From: a virus
Taxonomy: Duplodnaviria; Heunggongvirae; Uroviricota; Caudoviricetes
Strand: one strand, 5' to 3'
IMG/VR virus record: IMGVR_UViG_2744054912_000002
Length of the DNA: 51,139 bases
Shown here: positions 11,753 through 43,880 of the stretch, one piece after another
How positions within the stretch are numbered: position 1 is the stretch's first letter
How the letters are laid out: the number at the start of each line of letters is the position of its first letter
The notes under the pieces: model-generated
Databases searched by the model: none
What the model was told of the DNA's origin: nothing
Seen by the model: the letters and a program-made list of their open reading frames with translations, nothing else
Position numbers and translations under genes: made by a program

Positions 11753-11769
11753 ATTGCTCTAATAAATAT
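11753..11769 (+). promoter_or_regulatory. C1 repressor operator-like site upstream of uhr-hrdC-dmt
   Basis: ATTGCTCTAATAAATAT matches the asymmetric 17-bp P1 C1 operator consensus ATTGCTCTAATAAATTT. Confidence 0.7.
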
Positions 11770-11840
11770 TGTTTTTTATGTCGTGTTTTCGGTACCATTC
11801 AGCCATCGCCCTTCAATGGGTATTTGTTTGGAGTCGTCAG

Positions 11841-12125
11841 ATGCAGATGGAGCTAATAAGCCGCAAAGAGTTCGATAGCCGTGTAACCAGCGGTGAACTC
11901 GACAACTTGCAGGCTATCAAGGTGAAAGAAGGCTTTTGCCTCATTGGGAATCAGAGCGGAACAAATCGCGTTTTTATGCTTCGCCGTACGGATTTGAAGC
12001 CATTTGTCTGGAAGAACGAAATTGGTCCCAGCTCATACGCTCAAACTAGGGGGTGCCTCAACCTGGCCTTTTTCTACAAAAACGAGCTTTCTGTGGTTGA
12101 TATTCAAGGGTTACAACATGTTTAA
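11841..12125 (+). CDS. Hypothetical protein upstream of hrdC (uhr-like)
   Basis: Start at ATG preceded by GGAG (longer ORF in track starts at 11769); overlaps hrdC start by 8 nt. Confidence 0.5.
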
Positions 12126-13023
12126 GCACTGGAAAAACATTACTATTTATAAACTTTCTCGTGAGGCGGATCTGACCGACTTAGAAGATAAAAAGAAAAT
12201 GATCCTTTTCACGCCATGCGGTAGTCAGGATATGGCCAAGTTCGGTTTTGTATCTCCATTTGGTGATAATTCCGAAGTTATCGCTATGCATGGAAATGGT
12301 TTTATCCTTGTTGAGGCAAAGCGCGAAACAAAAATTCTTCCCCCGCCGGTTATCCAGCGAGCTATTCAAGAAAAAATTGAAAAACTCGAGCAAGAACAAG
12401 CGCGTAAACTGAAGAAAACAGCGAAGGACTCCCTGAAAGACGAAGTTCTGCATTCTCTTCTGCCACGGGCTTTTTCAAAGTTTTCTGTTATCCAGGCGAT
12501 CTACGACGGTTCAACTAAACGTATCTATATCAATGCCAGCGCGCGGCAGGCAGAGGATATGCTCGCGCTTATGCGTAAATCTCTGGGTTCTCTTCCTGTT
12601 GTTCCCCTAAGTGTTGAAAATCCCATTGAATTAACGCTGACCGACTGGGTACGTGATGGTAGTGCTCCACAGGGATTTCAAATGGGGGATGCGGCAGAAC
12701 TTAAGGCAGTGCTTGAGGATGGCGGTATTGCCCGAGTGAAAAAGCAGGACTTGGGAAGTGATGAAATATCCACACACCTGGAAGCTGGCAAGCTCGTCAC
12801 TAAGTTGGCACTCGACTGGCAGAACCGCATTAAATTTACACTGGACCATAACTTCAGCCTTACCAGCGTCAAATTTGCGGATGAATTGCTTGAGCAGAAC
12901 TCTGATATTGATAGTGAAGATGTTGCGCAGCGACTGGACGCAGATTTCTTCCTGTTGACCAGTGAAATTTCGTGCCTGGTTGATGCTCTGGTAAATGCCC
13001 TTGGTGGAGAGGCTAAGCAGTGA
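12118..13023 (+). CDS. hrdC: RdgC-homologous recombination-associated protein
   Basis: From [16 protein letters not shown]...[17 protein letters not shown], strongly RdgC-like N-terminus; 302 aa. Confidence 0.85.
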
Positions 13024-16000
13024 AAGAGCTGTGCTATGGATCTGTTTGCAGTGGAATTGAAGCCGCGAGTATTGCCTGGGAACCGTTGGGTATGCGTCCG
13101 GTGTGGTTTGCTGAAATCGAGCCTTTTCCATCGGCCGTTCTTGCGCTCCGCTGGCCCCATGTCGCCAACCTTGGCGACATGACAAAACTTGCCAAAAAAG
13201 TCTTGGCTGGGGAAATCGAATCCCCTGACGTGCTCGTCGGGGGAACACCATGTTTTACCGCGGGGCATATGGTTCTTTGTAAAAATGGTTATAAACCAAT
13301 AGAAGATGTTTGCCCTGGCGATTACGTAGTCAGTCATCTCGGGCGGTTACAACAAGTAAAAAGAGTTGGTTCAAAAATAGCTAATACGGGGTTACTTAAT
13401 GCCGTTGGGCAGCCTTTAGGTATAAGAACAACCAATGACCATCTCTTCCTGGCTGTTCGGTGGAAAGCCCAAAACACCCGGAAAAATGGCACATATTTTA
13501 AGAGAGAGTTGTTGTCTGAACCGGAATGGCGAGCAGCATGTGATATGCCGGGATATCAATGGTGCGCTCTAACTAATTTCAATATTGCATCTCCAGATAT
13601 TTGTTCTCGGTTCTTGACTGAAGAACAGGCTATGTATCTTGCGGGCGCTTATGTTGGCGATGGATATATTAGGAGATGGAGAGGTAAATCTAAGAAGGCG
13701 GTTGTTTTTGGCATAAATTGCCAGAAATTGAGAAAGTTTCATTGCCGCATACCAGAAAACATATTTTCCGTGGCAAGCGAAATCCGAGGGAGCATCAAAG
13801 TAACCTTGAATGATACGTGTTATGCCAATTGGCTTAATGAACATTTTGGCGAGTTAAGCCATGCTAAGCGTATCCCTGCATGGGTGATGTCGCATCCATT
13901 GCGTCATGTGTTTTTACAAGGCTATCTTGATACTGATGGGACACCAAGTGGTAAAGCGGGATTTAGAATTAATAGTGTTAGTCCTGCGCTTGCTTGGGGC
14001 GTTGCGGGGTTGTCACAGACTTGTGGTTATGTTTCTTCGGTCAGCTTTATTGAAGTTGAGCCCAAAAAAGTGATCGAGGATCGCGTGGTAAATCAACGGA
14101 ATTATTATCAGGTAACAATCTGCCCGCAGAAATTGTCACGTAAATCAAGATTGGCTCATGGAATGCTTTTACGAACAGTCAAAGAGTTTAAATCGGTAGG
14201 CCTAGATACTGTATACAACATAGAAGTCGAAGGTGATCATTCCTATATCCTCAATGGTGCGGTGGTCCATAACTGTCAGGCATTCAGTATCGCGGGATTA
14301 CGTGGTGGGCTTGATGATGAGCGTGGCGCGCTAACTTTAAAGTATGTGGAGCTTGCAAATGCAATTGACGACAAACGGGCTGAGTCATTTCTCAAACCGA
14401 CAGTTATCGTCTGGGAAAATGTCCCAGGAGTCCTGTCATCGGCAGATAACGCCTTCGGATGTTTCCTTGCCGGATTGGCTGGAGAAGATGCGCCATTTGA
14501 ACCAGGTGATCGACCTGAATCAGGAAAAAGTAACGCGTTCTGGCGGTGGGATGGCAAAACCGGTTGCCATGCTCCAAAGTGGCCGCAGTGTGGTTGTATT
14601 TATGGACCGCAGCGAAAGGTGGCCTGGAGAATCCTTGATGCCCAATACTTCGGAGTGGCACAACGACGCCGACGCGTGTTTGTTGTCGCAAGTGCTCGAA
14701 CAGACCTCGATCCCGCAACGGTACTTTTTGAGTTCGAAGGCGTGCGCCGGAATATTGCGCCGAGCCGAAAAAAGAAGGAAATCGCTTCCGCCATTATTGC
14801 AAATGGCGCTGCAATCAGTGGCGAAAGCCTAAATCCATGCCTACACGCTGACATGCCACCCGGTATGAAATCGACGAAAGCCGTAAACGCTTTCAGGATG
14901 GCAGCATTTGGGGAATATATTGACGATGAAACCGCATCGACAGTAAAGGCAAGAGATTTTAAAGATGCCACTGACCTTGCCGTTTTTAGCAGCACAGGAG
15001 CAGGTTTTTGGTCAGAAGGGCATGGTACATTGCGGGCACGTGAGCAAGAAAGCCATGAGCATCTTGTTACATTGGCTTTTCCTGAGCGTATGAGCGGTAC
15101 ACAACATGCTGCAACTAAGAATACTTCACCATCTCTAATGGCTAAAAATCCAACAGCTGTTTGCTATGAAGTAAGAAACGCAGAAGTAGCTGTCCGCCGT
15201 CTTACCCCTGTCGAATGTGAAAGGCTGCAAGGTTTTCCTGATGGGAATACGTTGATCCCGACGGAAAAGCGTAAAAAAGTTAATTCAGATGAACTGGCAT
15301 ATCTTCGCAATCACTATCCAGATTTAAGCGAAGAAGAGGCCGCGATGCTTGCAGCTGACGGACCGCGTTACAAAGCGATCGGCAATAGTATGGCAATACC
15401 AGTAATGCGCTGGATTGGCGATCGGATTACTAAGGCCGTATGTCGGCAGAAAGAAGGAAGTGAAACAAAAGAGCGAAAAGTTAAACCAGCGGCAGAATTC
15501 GAACGGTCCATATTCAAATGGGCTGGTGGAAAATTTGGTGTTCTGGAACAAATCTTTCGCTATTTGCCAGAAGGGAAGCGCCTGATTGAACCTTTCGTTG
15601 GTGGCGGAGCTGTCTTCATGAATGCCGGATACCAGGAAAATCTGCTAAATGATGTGAATGCTGACCTGATTAACTTTTACAAGACTCTGCAACGCGAGGC
15701 GCATTCACTTATCACTCTGGCACATCGTTTCTTCCAGGACTACAACACACAGGAAGGATACCTGGCAGTACGGAATGCGTTTAACAAACAAGTCTATGAT
15801 GATTTACATCGCGCAGCGGCGTTTTTGTTCCTGAACCGACATTGTTTTAACGGATTGACGCGTTACAACCAGGCCGGTGAGTTCAATGTCGGTTATGGGA
15901 AGTATAAAACTCCGTATTTCCCATTACAGGAGATGGAAGCCTTCCTCGGTGCGGAAGGGCGGTCTGAGTTTGTATGCGGTGATTTTGCAGCGGTGATTGA

Positions 16001-16307
16001 AGCTGCCGGAGAAGGAGATGTCATCTTTTGCGATCCGCCGTATGAACCGCTTCCAAATACAGAGGGATTCACGAACTATTCCGGTCATGACTTTAAGTTT
16101 GAAGAGCAAAAACGCCTGGTGTCTCTGTTGACGGATGCTCATCGTCGAGGTGCAAAGGTTCTCATTACTAACAGTGGCGCGCCAAACATCAGAGAGCTTT
16201 ATCATGACAGTGGCTTCAGAGTGGAACCTCTTTTTGCCAGACGTTCTGTGTCTTGTAAGGGGGACACTCGAGGTGTAGCTCATGACGTTTTGGGTGTATT
16301 GCTCTAA
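13020..16307 (+). CDS. dmt: DNA methyltransferase Dmt (N-terminal C5-cytosine MTase domain fused to C-terminal Dam-like N6-adenine MTase), interrupted in frame by an intein
   Basis: C5-MTase motifs: motif [10 protein letters not shown], motif IV GGTP|...|CQAFS, ENV (WENVPGVLS), motif [11 protein letters not shown]; Dam motifs [20 protein letters not shown]; 1095 aa, 754 aa after intein removal. Confidence 0.9.
13251..14273 (+). other. Intein (341 aa) with LAGLIDADG homing-endonuclease domain inserted at the catalytic Pro-Cys of the C5-MTase
   Basis: Starts Cys ([13 protein letters not shown], block A), block [21 protein letters not shown] motifs [11 protein letters not shown] and [12 protein letters not shown], terminal blocks [21 protein letters not shown] followed by +1 Cys of CQAFS. 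Confidence 0.85.
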
Positions 16308-16980: not shown

Positions 16981-17055
16981 GATGGTGTAGCTCAGCGGTT
17001 AGAGCGGTTGACTGTTAATCAACGGGTCGATGGTTAAATCCATCCACCATCGCCA
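16981..17055 (+). tRNA. tRNA-Asn (anticodon GUU), CCA encoded
   Basis: Hand-folded cloverleaf: acceptor GATGGTG/CACCATC, D-arm GCTC-AGCGGTTA-GAGC, anticodon loop CTGTTAA; T-loop appears to be 6 nt (TTAAAT) in my fold, so boundaries are approximate. Confidence 0.75.
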
Positions 17056-17057
17056 AT

Positions 17058-17133
17058 GCCGGTTTAGCTCAGTTGGTAGAGCGCCTGCCTTGTAAGCAGG
17101 ATGTCAGCGGTTCGAGTCCGTTAATCGGCACCA
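17058..17133 (+). tRNA. tRNA-Thr (anticodon UGU), CCA encoded
   Basis: Acceptor GCCGGTT/AATCGGC, D-arm GCTC-AGTTGGTA-GAGC, anticodon loop CTTGTAA, T-arm AGCGG-TTCGAGT-CCGTT; 2 nt after tRNA-Asn. Confidence 0.85.
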
Positions 17134-18564: not shown

Positions 18565-18640
18565 GGCCCTTTAGCTCAGTGGTTAGAGCTGGCGACTCAT
18601 AATCGCACGGTCACCGGTTCAAGTCCGGTAGGGGCCACCA
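18565..18640 (+). tRNA. tRNA with CAU anticodon (Ile2/lysidine-type or Met), CCA encoded
   Basis: Acceptor GGCCCTT/AGGGGCC, D-arm GCTC-AGTGGTTA-GAGC, anticodon loop CTCATAA, T-arm ACCGG-TTCAAGT-CCGGT. Confidence 0.8.
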
Positions 18641-43567: not shown

Positions 43568-43700
43568 GTGTTTTTTAACTGCCGATGTTACATTGAGCCT
43601 GACCTCTTGCGCCTTGAGGCATTTTCGGTTTATGCTTATCAGGCACCTCAGTAAAACGGGTGCCGGGATTGAGACCCCGGATAATGCAAAAGGCGACACA

Positions 43701-43722
43701 GACGCCAAAAGCGTCTTTTTTT
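43701..43722 (+). terminator. Rho-independent terminator
   Basis: gacgc-caaaa-gcgtc followed by T7. Confidence 0.6.
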
Positions 43723-43744: not shown

Positions 43745-43880
43745 TACGTAGCGTTTAGCTCAGAGATCAATGGTAGTGCTGGCTGGGCTGCCGAAAGGCA
43801 GGCCGGTTCCCTTTTGCGCCGGTAGTCTCAACCCAGTCAGTGCTACCGCCATTGAGATTGAGACCTCACGCGGTAGCTCC
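43745..43880 (+). ncRNA. Structured leader / candidate c4-like antisense regulatory RNA
   Basis: Long imperfect closing stem (43765-43782 with 43823-43844), GAAA-tetraloop hairpin (43788-43801), second hairpin (43803-43822) whose loop is complementary to the downstream RBS. Confidence 0.4.

What the first reader, a model, noticed from the sequence alone, without database searches (positions are those of the whole stretch)
13251..14273. Intein with LAGLIDADG homing endonuclease inside the phage methyltransferase Dmt, at the catalytic Pro-Cys
The dmt reading frame is continuous for 1095 aa. Between GGTP and CQAFS, which together form canonical C5-MTase motif IV GGTPCQAFS, lies a 341-aa insert with every intein hallmark: N-terminal Cys (CFTAGHMVL...), block B TNDHLFL, two LAGLIDADG motifs ([21 protein letters not shown]) with acidic residues intact, and C-terminal [21 protein letters not shown] followed by +1 Cys. 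Removing it restores a 754-aa Dcm-Dam fusion. The +1 Cys is both the splicing nucleophile and the methyltransferase catalytic Cys, so methylation by the N-terminal domain depends on splicing. I am not aware of a described intein in a P1-family dmt or in a C5-MTase motif IV.
Basis: partly seen in the sequence, partly recalled or inferred. Interest (0 to 1): 0.9.

Follow-up and report, generated by a model that had tools for sequence, protein, structure and literature searches.

The report
Homing intein splitting P1-family Dmt methyltransferase
The DNA methyltransferase gene of this P1-like phage-plasmid is interrupted, exactly at its catalytic cysteine, by a textbook self-splicing intein that carries its own homing endonuclease; the element is real, is found in about 3% of complete E. 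coli genomes, and I found no paper describing it, but it is a new example of a well-known kind of element.

Summary
ORF 13020-16307 (+) encodes a 1095-aa Dmt. Codons 78-418 (nt 13251-14273) form a 341-aa in-frame insert that is cleanly absent from reference P1 Dmt (754 aa), lying between GGTP and CQAFS.

The insert is a canonical class-1 intein with a nested double-motif LAGLIDADG endonuclease. The evidence is profile hits, conserved splicing and nuclease residues, and a confident AlphaFold model (pLDDT 93.8) whose best PDB matches are PI-SceI, VMA inteins and PI-PfuI. The +1 Cys aligns with the catalytic Cys of M.HhaI.

It is not rare. The same intein (>=99% identity) is in 152 of 5,426 complete E. 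coli genomes, about 31% of P1-like dmt alleles. It is also in phages RCS47 and Ro157c2YLVW and a laboratory P1 derivative, never annotated as an intein.

It belongs to a large site-specific lineage: about 90% of its 138 closest full-length relatives sit at the same Pro|Cys position of C5-methyltransferases, in several phyla and many viral contigs.

Flank haplotypes and a divergence break at the N-junction point to horizontal spread. Splicing and cleavage remain untested.

I found no paper on it; inteins in C-5 methylases are only listed for actinophages. Verdict: a new member of a known kind, of moderate interest.

The parts
11753..11798 (+). C1-repressor operator Odmt and sigma-70 promoter Pdmt of the uhr-hrdC-dmt operon
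   Evidence: 46/46 bases identical to the annotated Odmt/Pdmt of P1 AF234172. The function is taken from that record's annotation.
11841..13023 (+). Upstream operon genes uhr (11841-12125) and hrdC/rdgC (12118-13023); the hrdC stop overlaps the dmt start
   Evidence: Start positions located by matching the P1 genes; annotations of RCS47, P1 and pCombat11I9-3.
13020..16307 (+). dmt precursor ORF, 1095 aa (121.7 kDa): N-extein + intein + C-extein
   Evidence: 99.6% identical over its full length to the RCS47 dmt CDS.
13020..13250 (+). N-extein, 77 aa: C5-methyltransferase motif I region ([10 protein letters not shown]) up to ...LVGGTP of motif IV. The last codon is CCA in every intein-bearing allele.
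13251..14273 (+). Class-1 intein, 341 aa (38.3 kDa), running from Cys1 to Asn341
   Evidence: Clean indel against P1 Dmt; Hint_2, LAGLIDADG_3 and TIGR01443 profile hits; AlphaFold2 model pLDDT 93.8 with best PDB matches PI-SceI, TliVMA and PI-PfuI.
13251..13253 (+). Intein Cys1 (precursor C78), nucleophile for the N-S acyl shift (block A, CFTAGH)
   Evidence: Invariant in 13/13 aligned relatives and in 138/138 full-length relatives.
13431..13445 (+). Block B T61-N-D-H64 plus residue 65, which is Leu here (a P65L change private to this lineage)
   Evidence: T61 and H64 are invariant. Residue 65 is Pro in the 28 other P1-like copies examined and in 117/135 family representatives, and Leu in 2/135.
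13608..14126 (+). Nested LAGLIDADG homing-endonuclease domain (about intein residues 120-292). Motif 1 is [11 protein letters not shown] (nt 13638-13670, D137); the conserved Lys is K206; motif 2 is [10 protein letters not shown] (nt 13914-13943, D229).
   Evidence: Pfam LAGLIDADG_3; alpha/beta pattern of the model and matches to I-DmoI and I-SceI; D137, K206 and D229 conserved in the relatives.
14211..14273 (+). Blocks F and G: [21 protein letters not shown], with D329, H340 and the terminal Asn341 (precursor N418)
   Evidence: TIGR01443 intein C-terminal region; alignment to the Spl DnaX mini-intein C-terminus; V321, N323, V326, D329, V339 and N341 invariant.
14274..14288 (+). +1 Cys (precursor C419) and the rest of motif IV (CQAFS). 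This Cys is both the splicing nucleophile and the predicted catalytic Cys of the C5-methyltransferase.
   Evidence: The spliced protein aligns GGTPCQAFS to GFPCQAFS of M.HhaI. In 9 of 10 sampled relatives the best-scoring PF00145 stretch resumes at profile position 71 directly after the intein.
14274..15506 (+). C-extein, remainder of the C5-methyltransferase domain (ENV, QRRRR, the P1-type target-recognition region, GNS motif)
   Evidence: PF00145 hits; alignment with P1 and P7-type alleles shows a swapped variable region at precursor residues ~583-725.
15507..16307 (+). C-extein, Dam-type N6-adenine methyltransferase domain (precursor residues ~830-1091) and stop codon
   Evidence: PF02086, E 2e-56; TIGR00571 dam, 248.7 bits.

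Best explanation
Nucleotides 13251-14273 encode a canonical class-1 intein with a nested double-motif LAGLIDADG homing endonuclease. It is inserted in the dmt gene of a P1-family (IncY) phage-plasmid, between Pro77 and the catalytic Cys of C5-methyltransferase motif IV.

Shown here:
- The element is a precise in-frame insertion that is absent from many orthologues.
- It has the Hint plus LAGLIDADG fold and all the expected key residues.
- It belongs to a large intein lineage that is specific for this one position of C5-methyltransferases.
- It occurs, nearly identical, in dmt alleles of different backgrounds.

Inferred mechanism:
- dmt is transcribed from the C1-repressed Pdmt promoter when repression is lifted, giving a 121.7-kDa precursor.
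- Cys1 forms a thioester. The +1 Cys attacks it. Asn341 cyclises and releases the 38.3-kDa intein. An S-N shift then joins the exteins into the 83.4-kDa Dmt with an intact GGTPCQAFS motif.
- Until splicing occurs, the C5 domain cannot work, because its AdoMet-binding N-terminal 77 residues are separated from the catalytic loop and the catalytic thiol is the splice junction. The separate C-terminal Dam domain is probably not dependent on splicing.
- The free intein acts as a homing endonuclease. It would cut the uninterrupted GGxACxCCT|TGTCAGGCATTC site of an intein-free dmt when two P1-like elements meet in one cell. Repair from the intein-bearing copy would then copy the intein plus a short flank.
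For: Identity as an intein:
- Clean 341-aa gap against P1 Dmt.
- Hint_2, LAGLIDADG_3 and TIGR01443 hits above their cut-offs.
- Model with pLDDT 93.8 and pTM 0.90, with top Foldseek hits PI-SceI (E 1.5e-16), the TliVMA and PhoVMA inteins, PI-PfuI and PI-TkoII, followed by I-DmoI and I-SceI.
- C1, T61, H64, D329 and N341 invariant in 13 relatives. D137, K206 and D229 are conserved in 11 of 12 full-length sequences, the exception being P0009 with D229N.

Host site:
- The spliced protein gives a contiguous PF00145 match of 128 bits, against 108 bits unspliced.
- It aligns to the catalytic PC motif of M.HhaI.

Site-specific lineage:
- 160 representatives at E<=1e-30. Of 138 full-length ones, 120 have CQ at +1/+2 and about 125 have x-Pro at -2/-1.
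- 10 of 10 sampled carry PF00145 (one marginal); in 9 the best-scoring stretch resumes at profile position 71.
- The same junction is seen in Metarhizobium, Mesorhizobium, Arthrobacter, Clostridia and rumen genomes.
- It is seen in 54-59 of 61 non-P1 viral contigs.

Constraint on the endonuclease:
- The endonuclease domain is 44-49% identical in the closest relatives, against 49-54% for the N-terminal splicing domain.
- pN/pS is about 0.38 within P1-like copies.

Mobility:
- Sporadic distribution: 152 intein-bearing against 339 empty genomes.
- All four combinations of intein presence/absence and P1-type/P7-type recognition region exist.
- Intein divergence is at most 0.8% while N-exteins differ by up to 9.1%, with the break 4-10 bp upstream of the insertion in E. 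coli SCPM-O-B-8794.
- The -1 base is A in 29/29 intein-bearing alleles and T in 9/9 empty alleles.
- GC dips to 43-44% inside the intein, against 49-53% in the flanking extein.

Regulation: exact Odmt/Pdmt sequence upstream.
Against: - No experiment: neither splicing nor DNA cleavage has been shown for this or any related intein.
- The copies in E. coli are nearly clonal (>=99% identity). The 31% frequency could therefore owe much to vertical spread of successful plasmids plus ordinary homologous recombination among mosaic P1-like genomes.
- A third of sampled empty alleles (3/9) already carry the intein-type flank. The shared flank is therefore partly an allele lineage, not only a co-conversion tract.
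- pN/pS of 0.38 rests on only 21 variable sites.
- This window's copy has Leu instead of the conserved Pro next to the block B His.
- C5-methyltransferase activity of P1 Dmt itself is only described as 'perhaps' in the P1 annotation.
Confidence: 0.85

Rival explanations
1. It is a genuine, splicing-competent intein, but its endonuclease no longer homes. Its present distribution would reflect clonal spread of P1-like phage-plasmids plus general homologous recombination, and the intein persists only because imprecise loss would destroy dmt.
For: - All E. coli copies are >=99% identical.
- P1-like genomes are visibly mosaic, for example in swapped recognition regions.
- The intein-type flank also exists without the intein.
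- pN/pS of 0.38 indicates only moderate constraint.
- Decayed contexts exist elsewhere: the Mannheimia copy retains the intein but has lost the C-extein.
Against: - The catalytic D137, K206 and D229 are intact in all 29 P1-like copies examined and in nearly all distant relatives.
- The endonuclease domain is conserved about as well as the splicing domain over about 50% sequence divergence.
- There is a sharp divergence break right at the N-junction in SCPM-O-B-8794.
- Mini-inteins, the usual end state after endonuclease loss, are rare among the relatives; only P0023 was seen.
Confidence: 0.3
2. In this particular window (the AP027478-type lineage) the intein is splicing-impaired because of the private P65L change next to the block B histidine. 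Dmt would stay as a precursor with a dead C5 domain, while the Dam domain still works.
For: - Residue 65 is Pro in the 28 other P1-like copies examined and in 117/135 family representatives.
- The position is adjacent to H64, a residue that assists N-terminal scission in class-1 inteins (established intein chemistry).
Against: - Lys, Arg and even Leu occur at this position in other family members: 8, 7 and 2 of 135.
- From my own knowledge, well-studied inteins have K or R there.
- The ORF is otherwise intact and all catalytic residues are present.
Confidence: 0.12
3. The insert is not a protein-splicing element but a permanent domain insertion, with a nuclease or DNA-binding module recruited by the methyltransferase, or a bacterial intein-like or class-3 type autoprocessing domain.
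For: - Dmt is already a multi-domain fusion.
- LAGLIDADG domains fused to methylases outside inteins have been reported in actinophages (PMC9957025).
Against: - The insert interrupts the invariant Pro-Cys dipeptide of the catalytic loop, which no functional C5-methyltransferase could tolerate unspliced.
- It has Cys1, TxxH, a terminal HN and a +1 Cys.
- Two thirds of orthologues lack it precisely.
- It lacks the class-3 pattern: an N-terminal nucleophile is present, and no Cys is seen in the block F sequence as read.
Confidence: 0.02

Closest known systems
PI-SceI (Saccharomyces VMA1 intein) and the archaeal VMA / PI-PfuI / PI-TkoII inteins
   Same: Same architecture: a class-1 Hint splicing domain with a nested two-motif LAGLIDADG endonuclease, Cys1, a terminal His-Asn and a +1 Cys. 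These are the best structural matches.
   Different: - Only 11-17% sequence identity.
- Different host proteins (V-ATPase, RNR, DNA polymerase).
- This intein is smaller (341 aa against 454 aa for PI-SceI), so it probably has a reduced DNA-recognition region.
- Activity is untested here.
Inteins in actinobacteriophage DNA methylases (DNMT-1/2 of mycobacteriophages, PMC5050341; the Dorothy_75 family, PMC9957025; 'DNA methylase ... C-5 (IPR001525)' listed in bioRxiv 10.1101/2025.01.02.630785)
   Same: - Phage-borne orphan methyltransferases invaded by LAGLIDADG inteins.
- Patchy distribution and evidence of transfer between divergent host genes.
- The actinobacterial members of the present lineage (ASPE|C...N|CTNHS) are probably the C-5 cases listed in the preprint.
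   Different: - The detailed studies concern N6/N4 (PF01555-type) methylases and other insertion sites.
- In the passages I read, the preprint names the C-5 family but gives no insertion site.
- None deals with enterobacterial P1-family Dmt or with the catalytic Pro|Cys position.
The same allele in deposited genomes: Escherichia phage RCS47 dmt (CDN90818.1), vB_EcoM-Ro157c2YLVW dmt, P1 'del res del mod' OP279344 dmt, and about 150 E. coli, Salmonella and Shigella P1-like plasmids
   Same: Identical element at 99-100% nucleotide identity, at the same site and in the same operon.
   Different: They are annotated only as 'DNA methyltransferase', 'Dmt' or 'Dam family ... methyltransferase'. No record marks an intein. 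One disrupted copy is called 'LAGLIDADG family homing endonuclease'.
Reference P1 / P7 Dmt (Dam), the intein-free bifunctional Dcm-Dam methyltransferase
   Same: The extein is the same protein, about 99% identical to P1 Dmt after removal of the insert. It has the same operon, C1 operator and downstream ban operator.
   Different: P1 c1-100 and P7 lack the 1023-bp insert. Around the insertion point they read GGT ACG CCT | TGT, against GGA ACA CCA | intein | TGT here.

Membership tests
Class-1 intein (Hint-fold protein-splicing element) | Precise in-frame insertion in a conserved site of a host protein, absent from orthologues | tested here: met
   Single 341-column gap against P1 Dmt between GTP and CQAFS. 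339 E. coli genomes have the uninterrupted junction.
Class-1 intein (Hint-fold protein-splicing element) | N-terminal nucleophile (Cys/Ser) at intein position 1 and block B T-x-x-H | tested here: met
   C1, T61 and H64 are present and invariant in the relatives.
Class-1 intein (Hint-fold protein-splicing element) | C-terminal blocks F/G ending in (His)-Asn, followed by a +1 Cys/Ser/Thr | tested here: met
   ...VVHN|C. TIGR01443 scores 29 bits against a cut-off of 15.6. 123/138 relatives end in HN, and about 133/138 have Cys at +1 by my tally of the +1/+2 table.
Class-1 intein (Hint-fold protein-splicing element) | Hint fold | tested here: met
   Pfam Hint_2 is just above its gathering score (28.8 against 28.4). 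The AlphaFold2 model (pLDDT 93.8) matches PI-SceI, VMA inteins and mini-inteins.
Class-1 intein (Hint-fold protein-splicing element) | Autocatalytic excision and extein ligation | not testable with these tools
   Needs expression and western blot or mass spectrometry. Expected sizes are 121.7 kDa splitting into 83.4 + 38.3 kDa.
LAGLIDADG (dodecapeptide) homing endonuclease, monomeric two-motif type | Two LAGLIDADG motifs, each with a conserved acidic residue, in a duplicated alpha-beta-beta-alpha-beta-beta-alpha fold | tested here: met
   Motifs at residues 130-140 (D137) and 222-231 (D229). LAGLIDADG_3 hit at E 1.7e-8. The model's secondary structure and its matches to I-DmoI, I-SceI and PI-SceI agree.
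LAGLIDADG (dodecapeptide) homing endonuclease, monomeric two-motif type | Site-specific double-strand cleavage of the intein-free allele | not testable with these tools
   The candidate target is the junction ...GTCGGGGG(T/A)AC(G/A)CCT|TGTCAGGCATTCAGTATCGC.... It needs an in vitro cleavage assay.
LAGLIDADG (dodecapeptide) homing endonuclease, monomeric two-motif type | Population signature of homing (sporadic distribution, intein/extein incongruence, co-converted flanks) | tested here: inconclusive
   Supporting:
- 31% occupancy.
- All four combinations with recognition-region type.
- Intein at most 0.8% divergent against an N-extein up to 9.1% divergent.
- -1 A in 29/29 intein-bearing alleles against T in 9/9 empty alleles.

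Not decisive: the sample is 38 alleles, general recombination could give similar mosaics, and 3/9 empty alleles share the flank haplotype.
C5 cytosine DNA methyltransferase (PF00145) as host protein | Motif IV Pro-Cys catalytic dipeptide restored by splicing, with other conserved motifs present | tested here: met
   The spliced protein scores 128 bits on PF00145, contiguous over residues 8-135, and aligns GGTPCQAFS/ENV/QRRRR with M.HhaI.
C5 cytosine DNA methyltransferase (PF00145) as host protein | m5C methyltransferase activity of Dmt | not testable with these tools
   The P1 annotation says only 'perhaps at C5 cytosine'. I found no paper establishing it.
Class-3 intein / bacterial intein-like (BIL) domain (considered) | No N-terminal nucleophile with a Trp-Cys-Thr triad (class 3); or no +1 nucleophile and no ligation (BIL) | tested here: not met
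   Cys1 and a +1 Cys are present. Block F reads EVEGDHSY with no Cys. I therefore do not file it there.

The most novel reading that the evidence does not exclude
The intein may be more than a passive parasite. Its +1 nucleophile is the methyltransferase's catalytic thiol, and the gene is expressed only after C1 derepression. Splicing could therefore act as a conditional (for example redox- or DNA-sensitive) post-translational switch that times cytosine methylation of P1 DNA separately from the Dam activity needed for packaging. In addition or instead, the endonuclease could act as a weapon between competing P1-like phage-plasmids, cutting the intein-free dmt of a resident or co-infecting rival (marker exclusion). 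The two empty-site sequence types (GGT ACG CCT against GGA ACA CCT) would then represent sensitive and resistant targets.
Probability: 0.12. Interest if true: 0.65.

Novelty: new member of a known kind. Interest (0 to 1): 0.45.

Why it matters
- From my own knowledge, E. coli is routinely treated as an intein-free host. Yet about 3% of complete E. coli genomes (152 of 5,426), together with Salmonella and Shigella plasmids, carry this intein on P1-like phage-plasmids.
- The element sits in the family of a classical model phage, and one laboratory P1 derivative (OP279344) already carries it, while the reference P1 c1-100 does not. Splicing, homing and co-conversion could therefore be tested with standard P1 genetics.
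- This is a rare chance to study intein homing in a tractable enterobacterial system.
- It also reveals a large, barely described intein lineage dedicated to the catalytic Pro|Cys site of C5-methyltransferases, across Proteobacteria, Actinobacteria, Firmicutes and many viral contigs.
- It gives annotators a concrete correction. These 1013-1095-aa 'Dam family methyltransferases' are intein-containing precursors.
- In kind, however, the element is textbook.

Tried and rejected
- No paper links an intein to P1, RCS47 or dmt.
- Hits in papers on Thermus phages, SPbeta, Halobacteria, Klebsiella CG147 and plasmid mobility were coincidental: RNR inteins, reference lists or engineered toxin-inteins.
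- Novikova et al. 2016 (PMC4760082) does not mention methylases in its main text, and its supplements are not held.

Other checks that led nowhere or were set aside:
- Sequence-only PDB search of the intein was weak (Spl DnaX mini-intein at E 0.0013, PI-PkoII at E 0.02). Structure prediction was needed for a firm match.
- Pfam Intein_splicing and Hom_end were below threshold, so I do not rely on them.
- Archaeal and other 20-27% identity hits from the genome scan sit in RNR, DNA polymerase III alpha, IMPDH and similar proteins. They show only general intein homology and are not part of the methyltransferase lineage.
- I looked for the internal late promoter LPdam2 predicted in P7 dam as a route to intein-independent Dam expression. 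The region is present at window 15267 with 2 mismatches inside the predicted element. It is only a prediction in the P7 record, so I draw no conclusion.
- Rfam and tRNA scans found nothing inside dmt.
- Short antisense ORFs inside the intein (for example 13569-13844, minus strand, 91 aa) were not pursued, as nothing supports them.
- I considered whether SCPM-O-B-8794's divergent N-extein matched a sampled empty allele, as a direct recipient. None was close, with 18 or more differences out of 231.
Full report
**1. The observation**

The window has a continuous ORF at 13020-16307 (+) of 1095 aa. Nucleotides 13251-14273 translate to 341 aa, [14 protein letters not shown]...[13 protein letters not shown], followed directly by CQAFS.

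I aligned this protein with Dmt of phage RCS47, of a laboratory P1 derivative (OP279344) and of reference P1 (AF234172, 754 aa). Reference P1 lacks exactly these 341 residues, between ...VLVWGTP and CQAFSIAG..., and is otherwise about 99% identical. Calculated masses are 121.7 kDa for the precursor, 83.4 kDa for the spliced protein and 38.3 kDa for the intein.

**2. What the insert is**

Profile searches on the insert give:
- LAGLIDADG_3, E 1.7e-8, above the Pfam cut-off.
- Hint_2, just above its cut-off (28.6-28.8 bits against 28.4).
- NCBIfam intein C-terminal region TIGR01443, 29 bits against a cut-off of 15.6.
- Weak matches to several intein-containing equivalogs.

A sequence-only PDB search was weak. 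I therefore built an alignment of 13 relatives and predicted the structure. The model has mean pLDDT 93.8 and pTM 0.90, with beta-rich ends and a central alpha/beta domain.

Foldseek against the PDB ranks PI-SceI first (E 1.5e-16). Next come the TliVMA and PhoVMA inteins, PI-PfuI and PI-TkoII. Free-standing LAGLIDADG enzymes (I-DmoI, I-SceI) and mini-inteins follow.

In the alignment, C1, T61, H64, D329 and N341 are invariant. D137, K206 and D229, the residues expected for a two-motif LAGLIDADG active site, are kept in all full-length relatives but one. This is a class-1 intein with a nested homing endonuclease. It does not fit class-3 or BIL domains.

**3. The host site**

After in-silico splicing, the PF00145 match rises from 108 bits in three pieces to 128 bits, with a contiguous stretch over residues 8-135. 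The protein aligns with M.HhaI, so that GGTPCQAFS pairs with GFPCQAFS. The +1 Cys is therefore the predicted catalytic nucleophile of the C5 domain.

The C-terminal 265 residues are a separate Dam-type domain (PF02086 E 2e-56; TIGR00571 248.7 bits). It follows by inference that the C5 domain cannot work before splicing, whereas the Dam domain may. C5 activity of P1 Dmt itself is only 'perhaps' in the P1 record, and I found no paper settling it.

**4. Context**

The first 25 kb of the window are 100% identical to E. coli plasmid AP027478.1, and 98-99% identical to IncY P1-like plasmids. The second half matches P1-like phages, with pac, cre, pmgS and an hsd-type restriction-modification module.

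The exact P1 operator/promoter Odmt/Pdmt lies at 11753-11798. It is followed by uhr, hrdC and dmt, and the ban operator follows at 16298. By the P1 annotation the precursor is thus made only when C1 repression is lifted.

**5. Distribution**

- The same 3288-nt dmt is present in phage RCS47 (99.6%) and vB_EcoM-Ro157c2YLVW (99.2%).
- The intein is also in P1 'del res del mod' OP279344, combined with a P7-type recognition region.
- The intein DNA is found in 133 PLSDB plasmids: 118 Escherichia, 14 Salmonella and 1 Shigella, of which 129 are non-mobilizable.
- It is found in 152 of 5,426 complete E. coli genomes, always at >=99% identity.
- A 200-nt probe spanning the empty junction hits 492 genomes, and 339 of them have the uninterrupted site. 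About 31% of dmt alleles are therefore occupied.

No record annotates an intein. PGAP calls the ORF 'Dam family site-specific DNA-(adenine-N6)-methyltransferase'. One disrupted copy is named 'LAGLIDADG family homing endonuclease'.

**6. A site-specific intein lineage**

The word-index protein search found relatives at 47-52% and about 30% identity. All sit at ...P|C...N|C(Q/T), and they include a mini-intein and a Mannheimia copy.

The exhaustive search of 1.84 billion representatives gave 3,966 hits at E<=1e-3 and 160 at E<=1e-30. Among the top 148, 138 are full-length. Of these, 120 have CQ at +1/+2, and about 125 have an N-extein ending in x-Pro. Ten evenly sampled members all carry PF00145 (one marginal). 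In nine of them the best-scoring stretch resumes at profile position 71 immediately after the intein.

Genome and viral-contig scans place the same junction in:
- Metarhizobium, Mesorhizobium (GGFP|C...|CQPFS), Arthrobacter, a rumen bacterium and a Clostridia MAG.
- 54-59 of 61 non-P1 viral contigs.

More distant archaeal hits lie in other host proteins. The catalytic Pro|Cys of C5-methyltransferases is thus a well-populated intein site.

**7. Evidence on mobility**

I compared 11 intein-bearing and 9 empty alleles, plus 18 further intein-bearing viral-contig copies.
- The intein differs by at most 8/1023 bases among copies.
- N-exteins differ by up to 21/231. In E. coli SCPM-O-B-8794 the divergence drops from 9.1% (N-extein) to 0.8% (intein), with the switch 4-10 bp upstream of the insertion.
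- All four combinations of intein presence/absence with P1-type/P7-type recognition region exist.
- The base at -1 is A (CCA) in 29/29 occupied alleles and T (CCT) in 9/9 empty alleles.
- Occupied alleles share a flank haplotype from about -7 to +117. Six of nine empty alleles differ from it (the P1 reference type). Three of nine (MH422554, SA186, 702/18) share it except at -1.
- The intein has lower GC (43-44%) than the flanking extein (49-53%).
- pN/pS is about 0.38 for the intein (12 nonsynonymous, 9 synonymous sites) against 0.26 for the extein flanks.
- The endonuclease domain is conserved almost as well as the splicing domain over long distances.

Together these favour an endonuclease that is or recently was active, and spread by homing. 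General recombination among mosaic P1-like plasmids, plus clonal spread, cannot be excluded.

**8. Peculiarities of this copy**

The window (and AP027478) has two private amino-acid changes, P65L and S123T. Residue 65 follows the block B His. It is Pro in all 28 other P1-like copies and in 117/135 family representatives; K, R, L and D also occur. The effect on splicing is unknown, and I give a small probability that it impairs splicing.

**9. Comparison with what is known**

The kind of element is textbook, with PI-SceI-type bifunctional inteins as the model. Inteins in phage DNA methylases are known for mycobacteriophage N6/N4 enzymes (PMC5050341) and an actinophage methylase family (PMC9957025). 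A 2025 preprint lists C-5 methylases (IPR001525) among actinophage intein hosts (bioRxiv 10.1101/2025.01.02.630785).

Ten full-text searches found no paper describing an intein in P1-family Dmt, in RCS47 or in E. coli phage-plasmids. This literature check covers only the held library.

**10. Verdict**

The element is a new, undescribed member of a known kind, sitting in a large under-reported site-specific lineage.

Its appeal is practical:
- It is a natural intein in E. coli mobile elements.
- It lies in the family of a classical model phage.
- Both occupied and empty laboratory strains are at hand.

Splicing, cleavage and any regulatory role remain to be shown. Interest is 0.45.

Noticed in passing
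window 14770-15200 (precursor residues ~583-725); loci L003, L052, L053, L057, L060: The C5 domain of Dmt has interchangeable variable (target-recognition-like) regions. Dmt lengths without the intein are 754 aa (P1 type, this window), 672 aa (P7 type, also OP279344), 807 aa (SJ46), 862 aa (pSA186_4) and 762 aa (p702_18_3). This suggests different cytosine-methylation specificities among P1-like elements.
   Followed up: partly
L002 (AF234172) dmt codon 74, 12 nt upstream of the insertion site: Reference P1 c1-100 reads VWGTPCQAFS (TGG), where all 19 other sampled alleles read VGGTPCQAFS. This is a private Gly-to-Trp change inside motif IV of the laboratory reference strain, and it might affect its C5 activity.
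   Followed up: no
window 13443-13445 and 13617-13619 (intein residues 65 and 123): P65L and S123T are private to this window and AP027478 among the 29 P1-like intein copies examined. P65 lies next to the block B histidine and is Pro in 87% of family representatives.
   Followed up: partly
L062 (E. coli ES6 plasmid), N-extein codon 62; viral contigs L065, L066, L076: Some intein-bearing dmt copies are disrupted. ES6 has a nonsense codon in the N-extein and is annotated by PGAP as a pseudogene fragment plus a shorter 'Dam family' ORF. Three of 18 viral-contig copies show stop codons in the ~1.5 kb examined.
   Followed up: partly
P0011 (Mannheimia haemolytica, seen on 578 contigs); L088, L089: A 47%-identical intein sits in a C5-methyltransferase remnant whose C-extein ends about 20 residues after the +1 Cys (…VVHN|CQSDKGGTVK…). 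This is an apparently intact intein ORF in a decayed host gene, widespread in Mannheimia.
   Followed up: no
P0026 (1148 aa), P0027 (1015 aa), P0030 (1223 aa): Relatives at 52-56% identity lie in long proteins of Dmt-like size. P0026 was scanned and has the same Dcm + intein + Dam (PF02086) architecture, so intein-bearing Dmt-like fusions exist outside the P1 group proper.
   Followed up: partly
P0057, P0080, P0111, P0127, P0152 (1485-1861 aa): A few strong relatives of this intein lie in very long proteins with 3-6 intein-like stretches and different junctions (…GVKG|C…HN|QHP…). These are multi-intein proteins of unknown identity.
   Followed up: no
window 43643-43721 and 43766-43853 (+): Rfam isrK (58 bits) and C4 antisense RNA (75 bits) lie side by side, as expected for the P1 immI immunity region.
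   Followed up: no
window 16981-17133 and 18565-18640 (+): tRNA-Asn(GTT), tRNA-Thr(TGT) and a tRNA-Met(CAT) lie downstream of dmt. Phage Ro157c2YLVW has an extra tRNA-Tyr between Asn and Thr.
   Followed up: no
window 15267-15300: This sequence corresponds to the late promoter LPdam2 predicted inside P7 dam, with 2 mismatches within the predicted element (identical to P1 here). If functional, it could give a Dam-only product independent of the intein.
   Followed up: partly
window 26140-51139: The best phage match (vB_EcoM-673R5) carries HsdR and restriction subunit S genes in this region. This P1-like element therefore seems to have a type I restriction-modification module where P1 has res/mod. 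AP027478 is 140 kb, much larger than P1.
   Followed up: no
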